From positions 576,001 to 640,000 of the forward strand of contig CAVUZH010000003.1 of NCBI GenBank assembly GCA_963745835.1: a stretch of DNA of 64,000 bases, read 5' to 3'. The notes under the pieces were generated by a model, which was given only the letters and a program-made list of their open reading frames with translations, did no database searches and had not been told where the DNA came from. The number at the start of each line of letters is the position of its first letter. Position 1 is the first letter of the stretch. The translations under genes were made by a program, and so were the position numbers. Positions 14,921 through 49,523 of this stretch are shown piece by piece. This stretch comes from an uncultured delta proteobacterium (GTDB lineage Bacteria; Desulfobacterota; Binatia; UBA9968).

Positions 14921-16570
14921 TTAACTCCTGGCTTCTTTGTTCGCACGGTCCGTGGCCGGTTGTCGTGAAGAAACTCCGGCTGAAATGATTTCTTTTGCCT
15001 CTTGACGAGCCTGCTTCAGGGCGAGCCGTAGATTTTTCTGTTGTTCGAACCAAAACTTTGAAAAGGCTGCGCTCATCCGCTTATCAGTTATCTTCATCAG
15101 CAGGTAAGCCACGAGAAGACCGTCGGTTATCCAGGCTACCCGGATGATGTTACCTGAAAAGTTTTGTCCGACCGCATAGAGCGTGGCGAACGGTGAAGCT
15201 ACCAGATTGACTAGGAAGAGAGCTAGCCCCTTGGTGATTGACCATATGCCGATCCCCGAAGGGTCATCAAGCGCCCCGGAGGCGGCGATCAACGCGGCCA
15301 CGCAGGACAACAAGTAAATATAATAAGAGAGCCGGCCGACGCTGATGGTGCCGCGGACACAATTCAACAAGGAGCTTTGGGTGTTTGCGTGGGCAGATTT
15401 CAATACCATTTCTGCTGCGAGTGCCCGGGTCATCGCGGTCGCGTCTTCTTCCTGGTCACCGGTTGGCGTGATAACAATCCTCGCATCGGGTGGCAGATTT
15501 CCCGGACTGTAGTCCTCCGTTCCGTGCGCAATCCGTTCCATCACGCTAAGATGGATTGCCGGGGTCATTCCATTATCATGACAGAGCTGCCCGATATCGC
15601 GCGGTTTCCAGCGGTAGAAAACGCCTAAGCCGGCGCGGGGATCATAAAGCTTGTCGTCAACGTTGGCGTGATCTCGATAGTATTCGTACTCGTCAGGGAT
15701 AAATCGCAGCCCGGCATTTTGAGCCTTGGTCATCAACCAGTGCATTGCCGTCAGCGACAAGCCCTGCTTCGGATAACCTCCGCCAACATTGGAATGGGCG
15801 CCGGCAAACCACACCTGCTCGATCTTTTGCGATTTGCCCGGGCTGGATGCCCGTTGATCCCAGAGCAGCGGATGGAACGAATGCCGGTCATCGTCAACAG
15901 CCAACGCATGGTAGGCGTGGTCGACCTGCTCGCTTAACCTTTGATTGGGAAACTTGAATCGATAGATCACCGCATTGATGAAATCGCTAATGTGGAAAGG
16001 CATTCCGACCGCATCGACGGTGTCCCATACGCCGATGAAGTGAATCTTGGTTTGCTGCGGGTGGCAGTATTTGATTCTAAATTCGTCGGTCGCGGCAGCG
16101 CTAGCGTCGCCGCGCAGCAGTCGCATCAAAGCTGTTCGGTAACAACTGCGGTAAGCCTTGTAGGCTCTATTCACGCAACCGTCGAAAGCTTCCGCGGTAG
16201 GTTGCTTCTGTGCATCGATAATACCGCATCGGACGATGAGCCCCACGAGGCTACGGACCGTGAAAGCGCCGCGGCTAAAGCCGAACAAGAATATTTTATC
16301 GCCAGGATCATAGATACGGCATAGCTCCTTATACAGTTGTTTGACATTTCGGCTTAAACCCCACCCGGTTATTCCGGCAAAAATTTTGAGCGGTCTGAAA
16401 TCTTCCGTGCCGACGCCATCGTCGTAGATCGGCACCTGCGGATCCAGCTTCGGGTTAAGTCGGTGGCCATTGAGATCAATAGACTCAAAGATCTTGAATA
16501 CATTCGTGCCACGGTCCTTAACGGCAGAGTTTCCAGTTCCGTCCGAGCAGATCACAATGTTCTTCGCCAT
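14921..16570 (-). CDS. DUF2235 (Tle1-like alpha/beta hydrolase) with C-terminal TM segments
   Basis: KNIVICSDGTGN, FGFSRGAFTVR, GVWDTV, HALAVDD, QVWFAGAHSNVGGG motifs. Confidence 0.9.
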   Translation of the reverse strand: MAKNIVICSDGTGNSAVKDRGTNVFKIFESIDLNGHRLNPKLDPQVPIYDDGVGTEDFRPLKIFAGITGWGLSRNVKQLYKELCRIYDPGDKIFLFGFSRGAFTVRSLVGLIVRCGIIDAQKQPTAEAFDGCVNRAYKAYRSCYRTALMRLLRGDASAAATDEFRIKYCHPQQTKIHFIGVWDTVDAVGMPFHISDFINAVIYRFKFPNQRLSEQVDHAYHALAVDDDRHSFHPLLWDQRASSPGKSQKIEQVWFAGAHSNVGGGYPKQGLSLTAMHWLMTKAQNAGLRFIPDEYEYYRDHANVDDKLYDPRAGLGVFYRWKPRDIGQLCHDNGMTPAIHLSVMERIAHGTEDYSPGNLPPDARIVITPTGDQEEDATAMTRALAAEMVLKSAHANTQSSLLNCVRGTISVGRLSYYIYLLSCVAALIAASGALDDPSGIGIWSITKGLALFLVNLVASPFATLYAVGQNFSGNIIRVAWITDGLLVAYLLMKITDKRMSAAFSKFWFEQQKNLRLALKQARQEAKEIISAGVSSRQPATDRANKEARS

Positions 16571-16676
16571 CGGTTCTCCGTGGATAAAACCCGTGGTAGG
16601 CAAAATCTCGTGCGATGTACCAGCAGCTTCGGCCTCAAGAGTAATCGACTAGAGATAAGCGGGTCAAGAATATTTA

Positions 16677-17602: not shown

Positions 17603-17645
17603 AAAACAAAAGCCGATTACCTGGAGAGGTAATCGGCTTGTTGTT
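17603..17645 (-). terminator. Intrinsic terminator after ABC permease (possibly bidirectional)
   Basis: 13-bp perfect stem AAGCCGATTACCT-GGAG-AGGTAATCGGCTT with U-rich tail on the minus strand. Confidence 0.85.
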
Positions 17646-17695: not shown

Positions 17696-18547
17696 CTATG
17701 CTGCCGCCCCGACTTTCGGGCGCCACTTTTCGAAGCGAGCCTCCAACTTGGTTAGCAGTTCCATGGAGATCATGCCGGTGATGGCGAAGATCAGCACGCC
17801 GACAAAGACTTTGTCGGTCTGGAAAGTAGCTCCGGCCACGGTGATCATAAAGCCGATGCCGGCGGTAGCGGCATAAAGCTCTCCGACCATGACACCGATC
17901 AAGGCCCTGCCGACTCCGAGCCTCAAGCCGGTAAGAATAAATGGCAAGGTTGACGGTAACACGACACTTCTGAATATCTGCCATTCCGAAGCGCCGAAGC
18001 TCTTTGCGGCGGTAAGCAGGTTATATGGAGTGGTCTTTACCCCGTCACGCGCATTGATCAGGATCGGAAAAACCGCGCCGAGGAAAATGATCCCAACTTT
18101 TGAAAGTATGCCAATTCCAAGCCAGATAATGACTAACGGCAACAGGGCTACCCGCGGCGTGGCGTTCATGGCATTAATAAAAGGATCGAATATGTACGCC
18201 ATCTTTTTGTACCAACCGCAGGCAATCCCGAAGGGAACGCCTACCAACACGGAGAGCACGTATCCCCAGGCGAACTCGATGCCGCTTACTCGGAGATCGT
18301 TCCAGATCTCTCCCGACGCGAACAGTTGCACGGCGGCTTTCCAGATGAGCGAGGGCGCGCTCATGAACATGGGATTGATTAGCTGCAACGTGTTACCAAT
18401 CAATTCCCAGACAGTCAGGAATGTTACTACGGCGGCAGTCCCGAGAATTTTCTTCTCGTTGTTGAGGTAGAACTTATAAGCTCCGGAAGCCTCTGCGACG
18501 CGGACATCTAATAAAACCTCTTCTGCCGCGGGATTATGATCAGCCAT
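17696..18547 (-). CDS. NitT/TauT-type ABC transporter permease
   Basis: P.VALLPL.IIWLGIG, AAKSFGAS.WQIF..V.LP..LP.I.TGLRLG (EAA loop); AGGAGG RBS. Confidence 0.93.
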   Translation of the reverse strand: MADHNPAAEEVLLDVRVAEASGAYKFYLNNEKKILGTAAVVTFLTVWELIGNTLQLINPMFMSAPSLIWKAAVQLFASGEIWNDLRVSGIEFAWGYVLSVLVGVPFGIACGWYKKMAYIFDPFINAMNATPRVALLPLVIIWLGIGILSKVGIIFLGAVFPILINARDGVKTTPYNLLTAAKSFGASEWQIFRSVVLPSTLPFILTGLRLGVGRALIGVMVGELYAATAGIGFMITVAGATFQTDKVFVGVLIFAITGMISMELLTKLEARFEKWRPKVGAAA

Positions 18548-18571
18548 TGTTTTTTCCTCCTATCACGAAAT

Positions 18572-18655
18572 AAAAAAGCCAGCCTCTCCCCATCGGGTTA
18601 GAACTGGCCTGCCTTAACCGAGACACCCCATGAGGGCTCCCTTCAACTAGCCTGT
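18572..18655 (-). promoter_or_regulatory. Riboswitch-like attenuator 2 (candidate DUF1646/Na+-I aptamer plus terminator)
   Basis: Sense RNA GGCUAGUUGAAGGGA..CUCGGUUAAGGCAGGCC overlaps the left arm of terminator GCCAG...CUGGC-UUUUUU. Confidence 0.6.
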
Positions 18656-18666
18656 TTAAATCCAAT

Positions 18667-18762
18667 AAAAAAGCCGACGGGGGATGTGACCATCCCAAGT
18701 CGGCTTACGGCCCGACTGACTGCAATCCGTGTGCTGGAGCAGCCCCTCAGGTCATCAGCAAA
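18667..18762 (-). promoter_or_regulatory. Riboswitch-like attenuator 1 (candidate nhaA-I-like aptamer plus terminator)
   Basis: Sense RNA GAGGGG-CUGC..GCAG-UCAGUCGGGCCG followed by terminator GCCGAC..GUCGGC-UUUUUU; AGUCGG/CCGACU antiterminator pairing is possible. Confidence 0.45.
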
Positions 18763-18771
18763 ACTAGACAC

Positions 18772-18800
18772 ACGCTAATAACGAACCAGGTAAATGTCAA
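18772..18800 (-). promoter_or_regulatory. Sigma70-type promoter for the leader and permease
   Basis: TTGACA (overlapping the mpsC stop) - 17 nt - TAGCGT on the minus strand. Confidence 0.55.
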
Positions 18801-19174
18801 GCGGTTATTTTGCGCGGTAGATCCCTGCCCAGATTGGCGTCCAATATAAAGATGAACACACGCTCCCCCGACGTCGTATTGATGTCCGTAAGGATGTCGA
18901 GAACTTTGCCGCCGCTAACATCACTGATCATGGTTGAAAGTTGGGCCCGCGCGCTTTCAATCAAGGTGGAACGCATTTTTTTAATCAGTTCCACACCGTC
19001 GGCGCGTTTGGCTAGCTGTTGCTCTGCCGGTGTCAGCACGCCTTTGAGCCGGACCAGTATCAAATCTTCAATGATATGACTGCGAGCCTCTTTCGGACCA
19101 CGGCCCATGCAGTCGATTTCGAAACCGACCATGGCTTCACTGATCGCTGCCTCTATTTCGCCCTTCGTCTTCAT
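18797..19174 (-). CDS. DUF2294 / MpsC-family protein
   Basis: MKTKGEIEAAISEA..FE...MGRGP...VRLKGVLTPAEQQL...TDINTTSGERVFIF, typical of the family. Confidence 0.9.
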   Translation of the reverse strand: MKTKGEIEAAISEAMVGFEIDCMGRGPKEARSHIIEDLILVRLKGVLTPAEQQLAKRADGVELIKKMRSTLIESARAQLSTMISDVSGGKVLDILTDINTTSGERVFIFILDANLGRDLPRKITA

Positions 19175-19293
19175 CGGAGATGCGACCTCGTTCAAAAGCA
19201 TTGGCCTATAGCGCGCAACAATGTTGCGATGCGGAGCTAAACTTAGCCGTATACAGGTTGGCGAGTCAATCGGTCCGTGGACCTAGTGCCTAA

Positions 19294-49024: not shown

Positions 49025-49523
49025 TACGAATCCCTTAGATCCACTCCGAAGAATAGCCCTCGCAGCAAGTATTTAACCGGAAGACGCGAAAGACCGCGCA
49101 AATGGCACTGTCTAGCTTTAATCCGACGCGAGTTGAGACCTAACGTCTTTGATGGGTAACGCGAACGACTTTGCCATCATCGCGTAATTTTTTCTCTGCC
49201 AACTTGCCGAACCGACACGTTTATTACCTCCGACTCCACGAAAATGCCTTCCTTTATTCTGGTATAGGCGTTGCGCACATATCGCACTCGACGTTGATGC
49301 TATGAACTGATTACCCCAAGTGGTCACCATGGGTGTCAGGGAGCAAATGGTGAAACCGGCAACAGTCGCGGTCGCTTACTTTGCCTCCCTAAACCCTTGG
49401 TCGTTCACGGGGAATGATCCATCTGCACAACAAGCATCAACGGCATAAAGCCGCGTCGAACCCGGTTTATAGGGAATTTTGAGACGGCTGACGTAGCAGG
49501 CGAATGTTATTTAGGTGGTTAAC

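What the first reader, a model, noticed from the sequence alone, without database searches (positions are those of the whole stretch)
18560..18800. Tandem pair of different riboswitch-like attenuators between mpsC and an orphan ABC permease: candidate two-input alkali-cation switch
Seen: on the minus strand a TTGACA-17-TAGCGT promoter is followed by two consecutive modules, each ending in its own intrinsic terminator (U6 tracts at 18667-18672 and 18572-18577), before the permease RBS. In module 2, UAGUUGA pairs with UCGGUUA and 5' GGC pairs with the GCC that is also the terminator's left arm, so the two folds are mutually exclusive (ON-switch geometry). In module 1, AGUCGG can pair with CCGACU of terminator 1 as an antiterminator. 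Established: the DUF1646 RNA motif is a Na+ riboswitch, nhaA-I is a Li+-sensing class, and DUF2294/MpsC is linked to the Mps cation/bicarbonate system. Inference: from recalled consensus, module 2 resembles DUF1646 and module 1 (GGGG..GUCGGGCCG) resembles nhaA-I. Two different sensors in series would behave as an AND gate on a NitT/TauT permease, perhaps for bicarbonate or osmolyte uptake. I do not know this arrangement as described.
Basis: partly seen in the sequence, partly recalled or inferred. Interest (0 to 1): 0.85.

Follow-up and report, generated by a model that had tools for sequence, protein, structure and literature searches.

The report
Tandem leader RNAs tied to MpsC
The spacer between the mpsC gene and a lone transporter gene holds two related, conserved RNA hairpin-plus-terminator switches of an apparently undescribed kind that follows mpsC genes in many bacteria and sits in front of genes that handle CO2 or bicarbonate.

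Summary
The sequence observation holds. On the minus strand a promoter (18800-18772) is followed by two modules, each ending in an intrinsic terminator with a U6 tract (18672-18667 and 18577-18572), ahead of the permease start.

The naming does not hold. Rfam 15 gives no DUF1646, nhaA-I or other relevant hit for the window or for 37 homologous loci.

Both modules are nonetheless real structured RNAs:
- Module 1: 92% of cells paired, 13 pairs with compensatory change.
- Module 2: 94.7% paired, 12 such pairs.

In the window's family module 1 occurs in 39 of 90 genomes, and 37 of 50 copies start about 30-60 nt after an mpsC (DUF2294) gene. Models of both modules also hit single elements beside DUF2294 genes in distant clades, so the pair looks like two diverged copies of one motif class.

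Genes behind the motif are dominated by inorganic-carbon functions: GTP-PEPCK, MpsA-like, SbtA-like and biotin carboxylase. DUF2294 also occurs fused behind receiver domains.

Best reading (inferred): a terminator/antiterminator leader system for an inorganic-carbon regulon, probably read by the MpsC protein. A direct riboswitch remains possible.

The parts
18797..19201 (-). mpsC-like gene (DUF2294, 134 aa), directly upstream of the leader
   Evidence: Pfam PF10057 MpsC, E 8.8e-35. An ortholog ends about 30-60 nt before module 1 in 37 of 50 family copies.
18772..18800 (-). Promoter-like TTGACA-17-TAGCGT; the -35 overlaps the mpsC stop codon
   Evidence: Read. CTTGAC stands at the same place in 14 of 14 related loci. 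A TTGAC-17-TAnnnT site is also seen by eye after DUF2294 in distant clades. It is not listed by the consensus scanner.
18667..18773 (-). Module 1 (model R1): 5' leader, P1/P2 hairpin (about 18755-18707), terminator T1 (about 18706-18671), U6 tract 18672-18667
   Evidence: R1 match of 89.1 bits. The structure is supported on 51 sequences: 92.0% paired, 13 pairs changed on both sides, 0 of 500 shuffles reach this. Fold.
18572..18669 (-). Module 2 (model R2): P1 (18651-18649 with 18613-18611), P2 hairpin (about 18641-18620), terminator T2 (about 18610-18576), U6 tract 18577-18572
   Evidence: R2 match of 82.9 bits. The structure is supported on 34 sequences: 94.7% paired, 12 pairs changed on both sides, 0 of 500 shuffles reach this. 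Fold.
18545..18561 (-). Shine-Dalgarno AGGAGG (18561-18556) and ATG (18547-18545) of the permease
   Evidence: Read; ORF listed.
17696..18547 (-). Stand-alone ABC permease (283 aa), the gene behind the leader
   Evidence: BPD_transp_1, E 2.9e-29. Best NCBIfam matches are TauC, SaoP, SsuC and NtrB, all below their cut-offs. It is 84-98% identical in relatives.
17610..17639 (.). Two-way terminator-like hairpin that closes the permease unit
   Evidence: 13-pair stem with T-rich tails on both strands.

Best explanation
The 250-nt spacer is the 5' leader of the permease gene. It is transcribed from its own promoter at the end of mpsC.

Anatomy. The leader holds two diverged copies of one RNA motif class that is not in Rfam. 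Each copy has:
- a short conserved 5' stretch;
- a long hairpin (P1, an internal loop, P2);
- directly after it, an intrinsic terminator whose left arm (A-R-GCC-R-R-C) can instead pair with conserved upstream bases.

How it would work. Read-through of both terminators is needed to make permease mRNA. The hairpin decides whether the terminator forms.

The sensor. The motif almost always lies beside a DUF2294/MpsC gene, whatever gene follows it, and DUF2294 occurs as the output domain of response regulators. I therefore infer that MpsC is the trans-acting factor that binds the hairpin and sets termination. This works like HutP, PyrR, LicT or ANTAR proteins.

The regulon. It appears to serve inorganic-carbon (CO2/bicarbonate) supply and use.

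Shown: the RNA structures, the terminators, conservation, linkage to mpsC, and the kinds of downstream gene.

Inferred: regulated termination, MpsC as the RNA binder, inorganic carbon as the signal, and the direction of the switch.
For: 1. Structure.
- Module 1: 92.0% of 1169 cells paired, 13 pairs with change on both sides, 0 of 500 shuffles as high, slid controls <=48%.
- Module 2: 94.7%, 12 pairs, 0 of 500.
- On 19 non-Binatia homologues aligned to model R1: 93.8% paired against 75.1% shuffled, and all 9 hairpin pairs show compensatory change (the alignment is fitted to the model).

2. Switch geometry.
- The 3' strand of P1 (GUYGG) is complementary to the terminator's left arm (CCGAC) in 96.9% of cells.
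- 5' leader bases can also pair with that arm: U12-A85 in 49 of 51 sequences, Y14-G84 in 48 of 51, G16-C82 in 50 of 51.

3. Linkage to mpsC.
- 37 of 50 family copies start about 30-60 nt after mpsC.
- R1 occurs in 39 of 90 genomes and MpsC in 40 of 90; 36 genomes have both.
- R1 occurs in 0 of 142 genomes of the other families of the class sample.
- Of 80 metagenomic DUF2294 loci, 33 have an R1 hit just downstream. A further 14 have the low-GC version by pattern. A further 8 have it on the other strand just upstream.
- 4 of 7 DUF2294 loci of other families of the phylum are hit at E<=0.01.

4. One class. R2 hits the same elements as R1 in L199, L202, L206, L233, L193, L157, L239 and L155.

5. 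Genes behind the motif.
- Of 35 ORFs behind it: PEPCK 14, a second MpsC 5, ABC permease 4, MpsA-like 2, Sbt_1 1, biotin carboxylase 1.
- The ORF behind the motif is MpsA-like in 4 of 4 divergent loci tested.
- mpsC is followed by a beta-carbonic anhydrase (Pfam-tested in L205; L210 and L213 by eye).

6. DUF2294 as a possible output domain. REC+MpsC fusions occur in 2 of 5 long homologues scanned.

7. Literature. In S. aureus mpsC is dispensable for MpsAB activity, and mpsA falls at 5% CO2 (PMC6689103, passages).

8. RNA-library contigs cover T2 and run into the permease gene. X15 record 6 covers 18528-18691 with 0 differences. X17 record 20 covers 18373-18713. DNA carry-over is not excluded.
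Against: - No binding test or protein structure exists.
- Adjacency of mpsC and the RNA could reflect a shared function rather than regulator and target.
- 13 of 50 family copies lack an mpsC directly upstream. Of these, 4 are second copies in a cluster and 2 lie at contig starts. The other 7 (5 before TctC genes, plus L125 and L135) stand apart.
- 3 R1-positive genomes gave no MpsC hit: G178 (copy near a contig end), G184 (weak hit) and G211.
- The alternative pairings rest on near-invariant columns, so covariation cannot confirm them.
- The claim that modules 1 and 2 belong to one class leans partly on the shared terminator.
- The inorganic-carbon theme is weaker in the window's own family, where the genes behind the motif are the permease, tiny membrane peptides, TctC receptors and a Crp/Fnr regulator.
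- The permease substrate is unknown.
Confidence: 0.45

Rival explanations
1. Direct riboswitch. The hairpin with its conserved flanks is an aptamer for a small ligand tied to inorganic carbon (bicarbonate itself or a linked metabolite or signal). The two tandem copies sharpen the response. mpsC is only a co-located gene of the same pathway.
For: - Conserved structured leaders with terminators and competing pairings.
- Copies occur in front of genes without an adjacent mpsC, for example TctC genes in L136, L139, L150 and L151.
- G233 has several copies but one mpsC: 4 R1 hits and 1 MpsC hit.
- The downstream genes share a coherent inorganic-carbon theme.
- Tandem riboswitches, each with its own terminator, are known (PMC9337991, passages).
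Against: - The core is a plain long hairpin with a small, variable internal loop. Columns 29-30 of A7 vary (by eye).
- Conservation sits mostly in the helices and in the arms that take part in the alternative pairings.
- The gene upstream of a riboswitch is normally not conserved. Here mpsC precedes the motif across clades, whatever gene follows it.
Confidence: 0.25
2. Module 1 is a free-standing small RNA gene, about 95 nt from promoter to T1, that acts in trans or stabilises the mpsC message. Module 2 alone is the permease leader.
For: - Module 1 has its own conserved promoter and a strong terminator.
- It occurs without module 2: 21 of the 50 family copies have no R2 hit abutting them.
Against: - Module 1 always points toward a gene that starts within a few tens to about 200 nt of its terminator, or after module 2.
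- Conserved complementarity between the hairpin or leader and the terminator arm points to a switch.
- RNA-library contigs run from within T1 through module 2 into the permease gene.
Confidence: 0.1
3. One reading: module 2 is a DUF1646 Na+ riboswitch, module 1 is an nhaA-I Li+ riboswitch, and together they form a two-input alkali-cation gate.
For: - Both modules have a hairpin that competes with a terminator.
- Tandem gates of that type exist (PMC9337991, passages).
Against: - No Rfam hit to either family at E<=10 on the window region, or at E<=1 on 18 and 19 homologous loci.
- The two modules look like one class.
- The associated genes are not cation transporters.
Confidence: 0.02
4. A plain double terminator for mpsC with no regulatory role. 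The conservation would come from a recently spread cassette.
For: - Distribution is patchy: 39 of 90 genomes, 14 of 23 genera.
- T1 is the first terminator after mpsC.
Against: - Compensatory changes keep hairpins that are not part of the terminators.
- A conserved promoter lies upstream of them, and a ribosome-binding site and gene lie right behind.
- The same design recurs in distant clades at 48-60% protein identity.
Confidence: 0.05

Closest known systems
Tandem Na+ (DUF1646) and c-di-AMP riboswitches of Dehalobacter sp. CF (PMC9337991, passages read)
   Same: Two leader modules in series, each with its own intrinsic terminator, so both must be passed to express the gene. In each module the terminator competes with sensor-domain pairing.
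   Different: Neither module here matches those or any other Rfam model. The two modules here appear to be one class, not two. No ligand is known.
HutP and the hut operon terminator of Bacillus subtilis (recalled, not checked in a call)
   Same: A small regulator gene lies directly upstream of a terminator-containing RNA. The regulated genes follow, and the protein decides read-through.
   Different: DUF2294 matches only PF10057 in Pfam, so it is not a HutP family member. Binding is not shown. There is a separate promoter between mpsC and the RNA. The UAG triplets in module 2 are not regularly spaced (by eye).
PyrR attenuators and LicT/BglG RAT antiterminators (recalled)
   Same: A protein-stabilised hairpin that overlaps or frees a terminator arm. 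Several attenuators occur in series or at several operons of one regulon.
   Different: The sequence motifs differ and there is no protein homology. The direction of the switch (ON or OFF) is unresolved here.
ANTAR response regulators (recalled)
   Same: A receiver domain is fused to an output domain that acts on terminator-containing leaders. REC+DUF2294 fusions exist.
   Different: DUF2294 is not an ANTAR domain. The RNA is a single long hairpin, not the paired hexaloop hairpins of ANTAR targets.
MpsABC / DAB inorganic-carbon uptake system (PMC6689103, passages; PMC8552792, abstract only)
   Same: mpsC is the family namesake. In one clade the motif lies in front of an MpsA-like gene that is divergent from mpsC.
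   Different: In the window there is no mpsA or mpsB next to mpsC. In S. aureus mpsC is dispensable for transport, which leaves room for a regulatory role.

Membership tests
DUF1646 motif / Na+ riboswitch (Rfam) | Match to the Rfam covariance model | tested here: not met
   cmscan of 18450-18900 at E<=10 returned only two chance hits (mir-8303, PK-BYV). The whole window at gathering thresholds gave none. 18 and 19 homologous loci at E<=1 gave none.
DUF1646 motif / Na+ riboswitch (Rfam) | Two hairpins, P1 and P2, with conserved bases at the bottom of P1 and in the loop of P2; the terminator forms at the expense of P2 (PMC9337991, passages) | tested here: not met
   Module 2 has a 3-bp P1, a large internal loop and one P2 hairpin whose loop varies in sequence and length. 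The terminator does not overlap P2.
nhaA-I motif / Li+ riboswitch (Rfam) | Match to the Rfam covariance model | tested here: not met
   No hit.
nhaA-I and DUF1646 | Association with cation transporter genes | tested here: not met
   The downstream genes are an ABC permease, small peptides, TctC, Crp/Fnr, PEPCK, MpsA-like, Sbt_1 and biotin carboxylase.
Intrinsic (factor-independent) terminator | G+C-rich hairpin directly followed by a U tract | tested here: met
   T1 and T2 fold as hairpins followed by U6. Terminator helices are 97.2% (T1) and 97.7% (T2) paired across relatives.
Riboswitch (any class) | Direct, selective binding of a small ligand by the RNA | not testable with these tools
   Needs in-line probing or termination assays.
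Tandem leader architecture | Two sensor modules in series, each with its own terminator | tested here: met
   31 of 36 family R2 matches abut an R1 match. Two more follow one after about 360-390 nt.
Protein-dependent attenuation (HutP, PyrR, LicT, ANTAR type) | Regulator protein homologous to one of these families | tested here: not met
   The upstream protein matches only PF10057 in Pfam and has no PDB relative.
Protein-dependent attenuation (HutP, PyrR, LicT, ANTAR type) | Protein binds the leader RNA and changes termination | not testable with these tools
   Only linkage is shown.
MpsC / DUF2294 (PF10057) | Pfam model above its gathering score | tested here: met
   119.6 bits against a cut-off of 23.
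ABC permease of the nitrate/sulfonate/taurine/bicarbonate type | BPD_transp_1 domain; equivalog-level match to a named transporter | tested here: inconclusive
   BPD_transp_1 is met (102.5 bits). TauC (153.9 against a cut-off of 342), SsuC and NtrB are all below their cut-offs. No ATPase or binding-protein gene is adjacent.

The most novel reading that the evidence does not exclude
The mpsC-linked leader is the RNA part of a dedicated CO2/bicarbonate-responsive attenuation system, which is found in several phyla. Either DUF2294/MpsC is a new family of RNA-binding terminator/antiterminator proteins that reports inorganic-carbon status, or the RNA itself senses it. The system would control PEP carboxykinase, MpsAB-type and SbtA-type uptake, biotin carboxylase and, in Binatia, a lone ABC permease.
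Probability: 0.4. Interest if true: 0.9.

Novelty: new member of a known kind. Interest (0 to 1): 0.8.

Why it matters
How non-autotrophic bacteria sense and respond to CO2/bicarbonate is largely open. A 2026 preprint on B. subtilis says the mechanisms that regulate carbonic anhydrase and bicarbonate importer genes remain to be explored (10.64898/2026.09.08.750065, passages). In S. aureus mpsC has no known role (PMC6689103, passages).

If the reading is right, three things follow:
- It gives DUF2294, which has 1470 representative clusters at E<=0.001, a testable function.
- It adds a leader-RNA class that is not in Rfam 15.
- It supplies a compact, portable cassette (mpsC, promoter, hairpin, terminator) that could be tested directly in cultured carriers of the low-GC version placed in front of PEPCK.

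It also corrects a tempting mis-assignment to the Na+ and Li+ riboswitch classes.

Tried and rejected
Rfam membership. Gathering and permissive scans found nothing relevant.

Helices tested and dropped.
- A helix between the 5' flank and the 3' internal loop of module 2 (columns 9-13 with 64-68) is only 50.9% paired.
- RNAfold's inner extension of P1 in module 2 is 77% paired, no better than shuffles.

Low-GC clade. A MAFFT alignment of 21 sequences (A11) gave only 79.3% paired, with 21 of 500 shuffles reaching its covariation score. Indels are misplaced, so this is inconclusive. I used the model-fitted alignment A13 instead and state its bias.

Leader peptide in module 1. The AUG in 'GAUG' is not conserved; GAUA, GAUC and GAUU also occur (by eye). 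Dropped.

TRAP- or HutP-like triplet repeats in module 2. The spacing is irregular (by eye). Dropped.

Protein fold of MpsC.
- No PDB relative by sequence or by profile. The best hit is E 0.039 to an unrelated nitrophorin.
- The ESM Atlas gave no usable hit and holds no model.

Expression. Only Logan contigs of RNA libraries were on hand. They cannot show ends, strand or level. X15 has no cover over 18692-18793, and X16 has none upstream of 18716; this proves nothing. A contig in X16 that skips 18555-18657, with 106 other letters in between, is a relative with a different module 2. It is not a joint.

Literature.
- 'DUF2294' and 'PF10057' each found one unrelated fungal paper.
- 'MpsC'+'riboswitch': none of the 15 papers listed mentions mpsC.
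- The listed RNA-discovery papers (PMC8632094, PMC6429828, PMC11109978, PMC5737381) contain 'carboxykinase' 0 times in their main text (listing only). Their supplements could hold such a motif and were not visible.

Loci left out of the Pfam tally. Of the 80 metagenomic DUF2294 loci, only 35 had both a regex-detected terminator and a following ORF (>=90 aa, or a truncated one of >=50 aa). Only these 35 were scanned.

Full report
**What is there.** All features below are on the minus strand.
- The mpsC-like ORF (18797-19201) ends inside a TTGACA box (18800-18795). Seventeen bases later comes TAGCGT (18777-18772).
- About 250 nt separate this ORF from the next gene, an ABC permease (17696-18547). 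The permease start is preceded by AGGAGG (18561-18556).
- The spacer holds two hairpins, each followed by U6 (18672-18667 and 18577-18572).
- Pfam confirms MpsC/DUF2294 (E 8.8e-35) and BPD_transp_1. NCBIfam puts the permease nearest to TauC, SsuC and NtrB, below their cut-offs.
- No ATPase or binding-protein gene is adjacent, and a two-way terminator-like hairpin follows the permease.

**Not DUF1646, not nhaA-I.**
- Rfam 15 at gathering scores finds only a tRNA and a c-di-GMP-II-GAG element elsewhere in the window.
- A permissive scan of 18450-18900 (E<=10) returns two chance hits.
- Scans of 18 family loci and 19 more distant homologous loci at E<=1 return nothing relevant.

**Both modules are conserved structured RNAs.**
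- The whole spacer is conserved in the genus (97, 88, 79 and 73% identity). Beyond the genus, the two halves match separately.
- I built covariance model R1 for module 1 and R2 for module 2.
- R1 occurs in 39 of 90 genomes of the window's family (52 matches). In a class-wide sample it occurs in 0 of 142 genomes of the other families.
- R2 occurs in 32 of 90 genomes (36 matches). Of these, 31 abut an R1 match, 2 follow one after about 360-390 nt, and 3 have none on the contig.
- Module 1, on a MAFFT alignment of 51 distinct sequences: a long hairpin (P1, a 2x2 internal loop, P2) plus the terminator is 92.0% paired. Thirteen pairs change on both sides, 0 of 500 shuffles reach this, and slid controls stay at or below 48%.
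- Module 2, on 34 sequences: a 3-bp P1, a 7-pair P2 and the terminator are 94.7% paired, with 12 pairs changed on both sides and 0 of 500 shuffles as high. P2 has an A.G mismatch that looks conserved by eye.

**Switch geometry.**
- Module 1: the 3' strand of P1 (GUYGG) is complementary to the terminator's left arm (CCGAC) in 96.9% of cells.
- Module 1, second option: bases of the conserved 5' leader can pair with the same arm and would close the whole hairpin (fold).
- The first option would give an OFF switch when P1 is stabilised. The second would give an ON switch.
- Module 2: the 5' GGC can pair either with GGC just before the terminator (P1, which shows two U-A covariations) or with GCC inside the terminator's left arm (96.1% of cells).
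- These columns are almost invariant, so the alternative pairings are consistent with the data but not proven.

**Context in the family.**
- Of 50 R1 copies, 37 begin about 30-60 nt after an mpsC ortholog.
- Of the other 13, 4 are second copies in the same cluster and 2 lie at contig starts. Five precede TctC genes, and 2 others (L125, L135) also lack an adjacent mpsC.
- 36 genomes have both R1 and MpsC, 3 have only R1 and 4 have only MpsC.
- Genes behind the 50 copies, by my reading:
  - the permease: 17;
  - a Trp-rich 32-44-aa membrane peptide: 11;
  - a 52-54-aa membrane peptide: 5;
  - TctC receptors: 5;
  - a 179-aa protein with no family: 2;
  - a Crp/Fnr regulator: 2;
  - unclear or at a contig end: 8.
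- Related records are titled as MAGs of 'Candidatus Binatia' or 'Deltaproteobacteria'.

**The motif reaches far beyond the family and stays beside DUF2294.**
- DUF2294 is rare in the phylum sample: 7 of 201 genomes.
- By eye, every one of the 7 loci from other families has a hairpin and an A-R-GCC-R-A-C terminator after the gene, and most also a promoter-like box. R1 hits 4 of the 7 at E<=0.01, on the gene's strand.
- A metagenome scan gave 80 DUF2294 loci at 48-72% identity.
  - 33 have an R1 hit (E<=0.01) within about 125 nt downstream.
  - 14 more carry a low-GC version found by pattern: GGAAGACU, AAGGCAA, a hairpin, UUGUUGC, then AAAGUAAGCCAAC and a terminator.
  - 8 more carry the element on the opposite strand just upstream of mpsC, leading into another gene.
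  - That makes at least 55 of 80. Seven loci had less than 150 nt downstream.
- On 19 non-Binatia hits aligned to R1, the structure is 93.8% paired against 75.1% for shuffles. All 9 hairpin pairs show compensatory change. This alignment is fitted to the model.
- R2 hits the same single elements as R1 in L199, L202, L206, L233, L193, L157, L239 and L155. The window's two modules are therefore best read as two diverged copies of one class. Part of those scores comes from the shared terminator.

**What the motif controls.**
- Of 35 ORFs that follow a DUF2294-linked terminator, Pfam gives (details for 10 of them):
  - GTP-type PEP carboxykinase: 14;
  - a second MpsC: 5;
  - ABC permease: 4;
  - NuoL/MpsA-like: 2;
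  - one each of the Sbt_1 bicarbonate transporter, biotin carboxylase, DUF4914, a DegT aminotransferase and SAICAR synthase.
- In the divergent arrangement the gene behind the RNA is MpsA-like in 4 of 4 loci tested. There mpsC is followed by a beta-carbonic anhydrase or by SelO.
- Other cases are monomeric isocitrate dehydrogenase, an M48 peptidase and DUF4914.
- The common thread is supply or use of CO2/bicarbonate.

**Why a protein sensor is my first choice.**
- The gene upstream of the RNA stays constant while the gene downstream changes. This is the pattern of a regulator next to its target site.
- The hairpin has no elaborate conserved pocket.
- DUF2294 occurs behind receiver domains in 2 of 5 long homologues scanned, in the position of an output domain.
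- In S. aureus mpsC is dispensable for MpsAB function, and mpsA expression falls at 5% CO2 (PMC6689103, passages).
- None of this shows binding. A direct riboswitch, with mpsC merely co-located, is not excluded. It is favoured by the copies that stand apart from mpsC.

**Expression.**
- RNA-library contigs from four studies cover the region.
- X15 record 6 (164 nt, no differences) spans 18528-18691. That is the U tract of T1, all of module 2, T2 and the permease start.
- X17 record 20 spans 18373-18713, and X18 record 28 spans 17967-18688; both are from relatives.
- This fits read-through transcripts. Contigs show no ends or strand, and DNA carry-over is possible.

**Verdict.**
- The family names are wrong.
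- The 'two different inputs' idea is unlikely.
- The locus exposes an apparently undescribed, widely spread leader-RNA class bound up with DUF2294/MpsC and inorganic-carbon genes.
- The searches behind 'undescribed' are Rfam 15 and the literature searches. Supplements of the RNA-discovery papers were not visible.
- Claims that include the unpublished genome G012 are the counts and two rows each of A1 and A7.

Noticed in passing
window 49287-49370 (+): A c-di-GMP-II-GAG riboswitch aptamer scores above the Rfam gathering score (47.6 bits against 40).
   Followed up: no
window 17696-18547 (-); loci L025-L104: The lone permease belongs to a multi-copy family, 80-98% identical across Binatia-type MAGs, with 209 related stretches. 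It looked monocistronic in the 4 loci inspected. Its upstream regions fall into separate conserved classes of 24, 20, 14 and 10 loci. Only the class of 14 carries this leader. By eye, one class lies after what looks like a MarR-type regulator gene and two have a plain TATTGACA-17-TGTTAC promoter.
   Followed up: partly
L105:1273-1380 (-), L141:1727-1834 (+), L134:1655-1810 (+) and relatives: Tiny membrane peptides follow the leader in many relatives: a 32-44-aa type (M-E/G-K-W-x-P-I-F-W-I...K-K-K) and a 52-54-aa type. Neither matches Pfam or NCBIfam. The 36-aa type is often followed by a distant second DUF2294 gene.
   Followed up: partly
proteins P0058, P0134: Response-regulator receiver domains are fused N-terminal to DUF2294.
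   Followed up: partly
L159, L229, L237: DUF4914 proteins recur next to DUF2294. Two of the three (L159, L229) lie behind the leader.
   Followed up: no
L205, L210, L213; L215, L216, L231, L238: In a GC-rich clade mpsC is directly followed by a beta-carbonic anhydrase (Pfam-tested in L205) or by SelO (Pfam-tested in L216). The other loci were judged by eye from the N-terminal sequences. In this clade mpsC is divergent from an RNA-led mpsA-like gene.
   Followed up: partly
window 14921-16603 (-): A 560-aa ORF with a T6SS Tle1-like phospholipase catalytic domain (E 7.5e-74).
   Followed up: no
L006 921-1040 and 2521-2640 (oriented copy): In some relatives permease and mpsC genes alternate in tandem (perm-mpsC-leader-perm-mpsC). 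A separate conserved terminator-like hairpin lies between each permease and the next mpsC.
   Followed up: no
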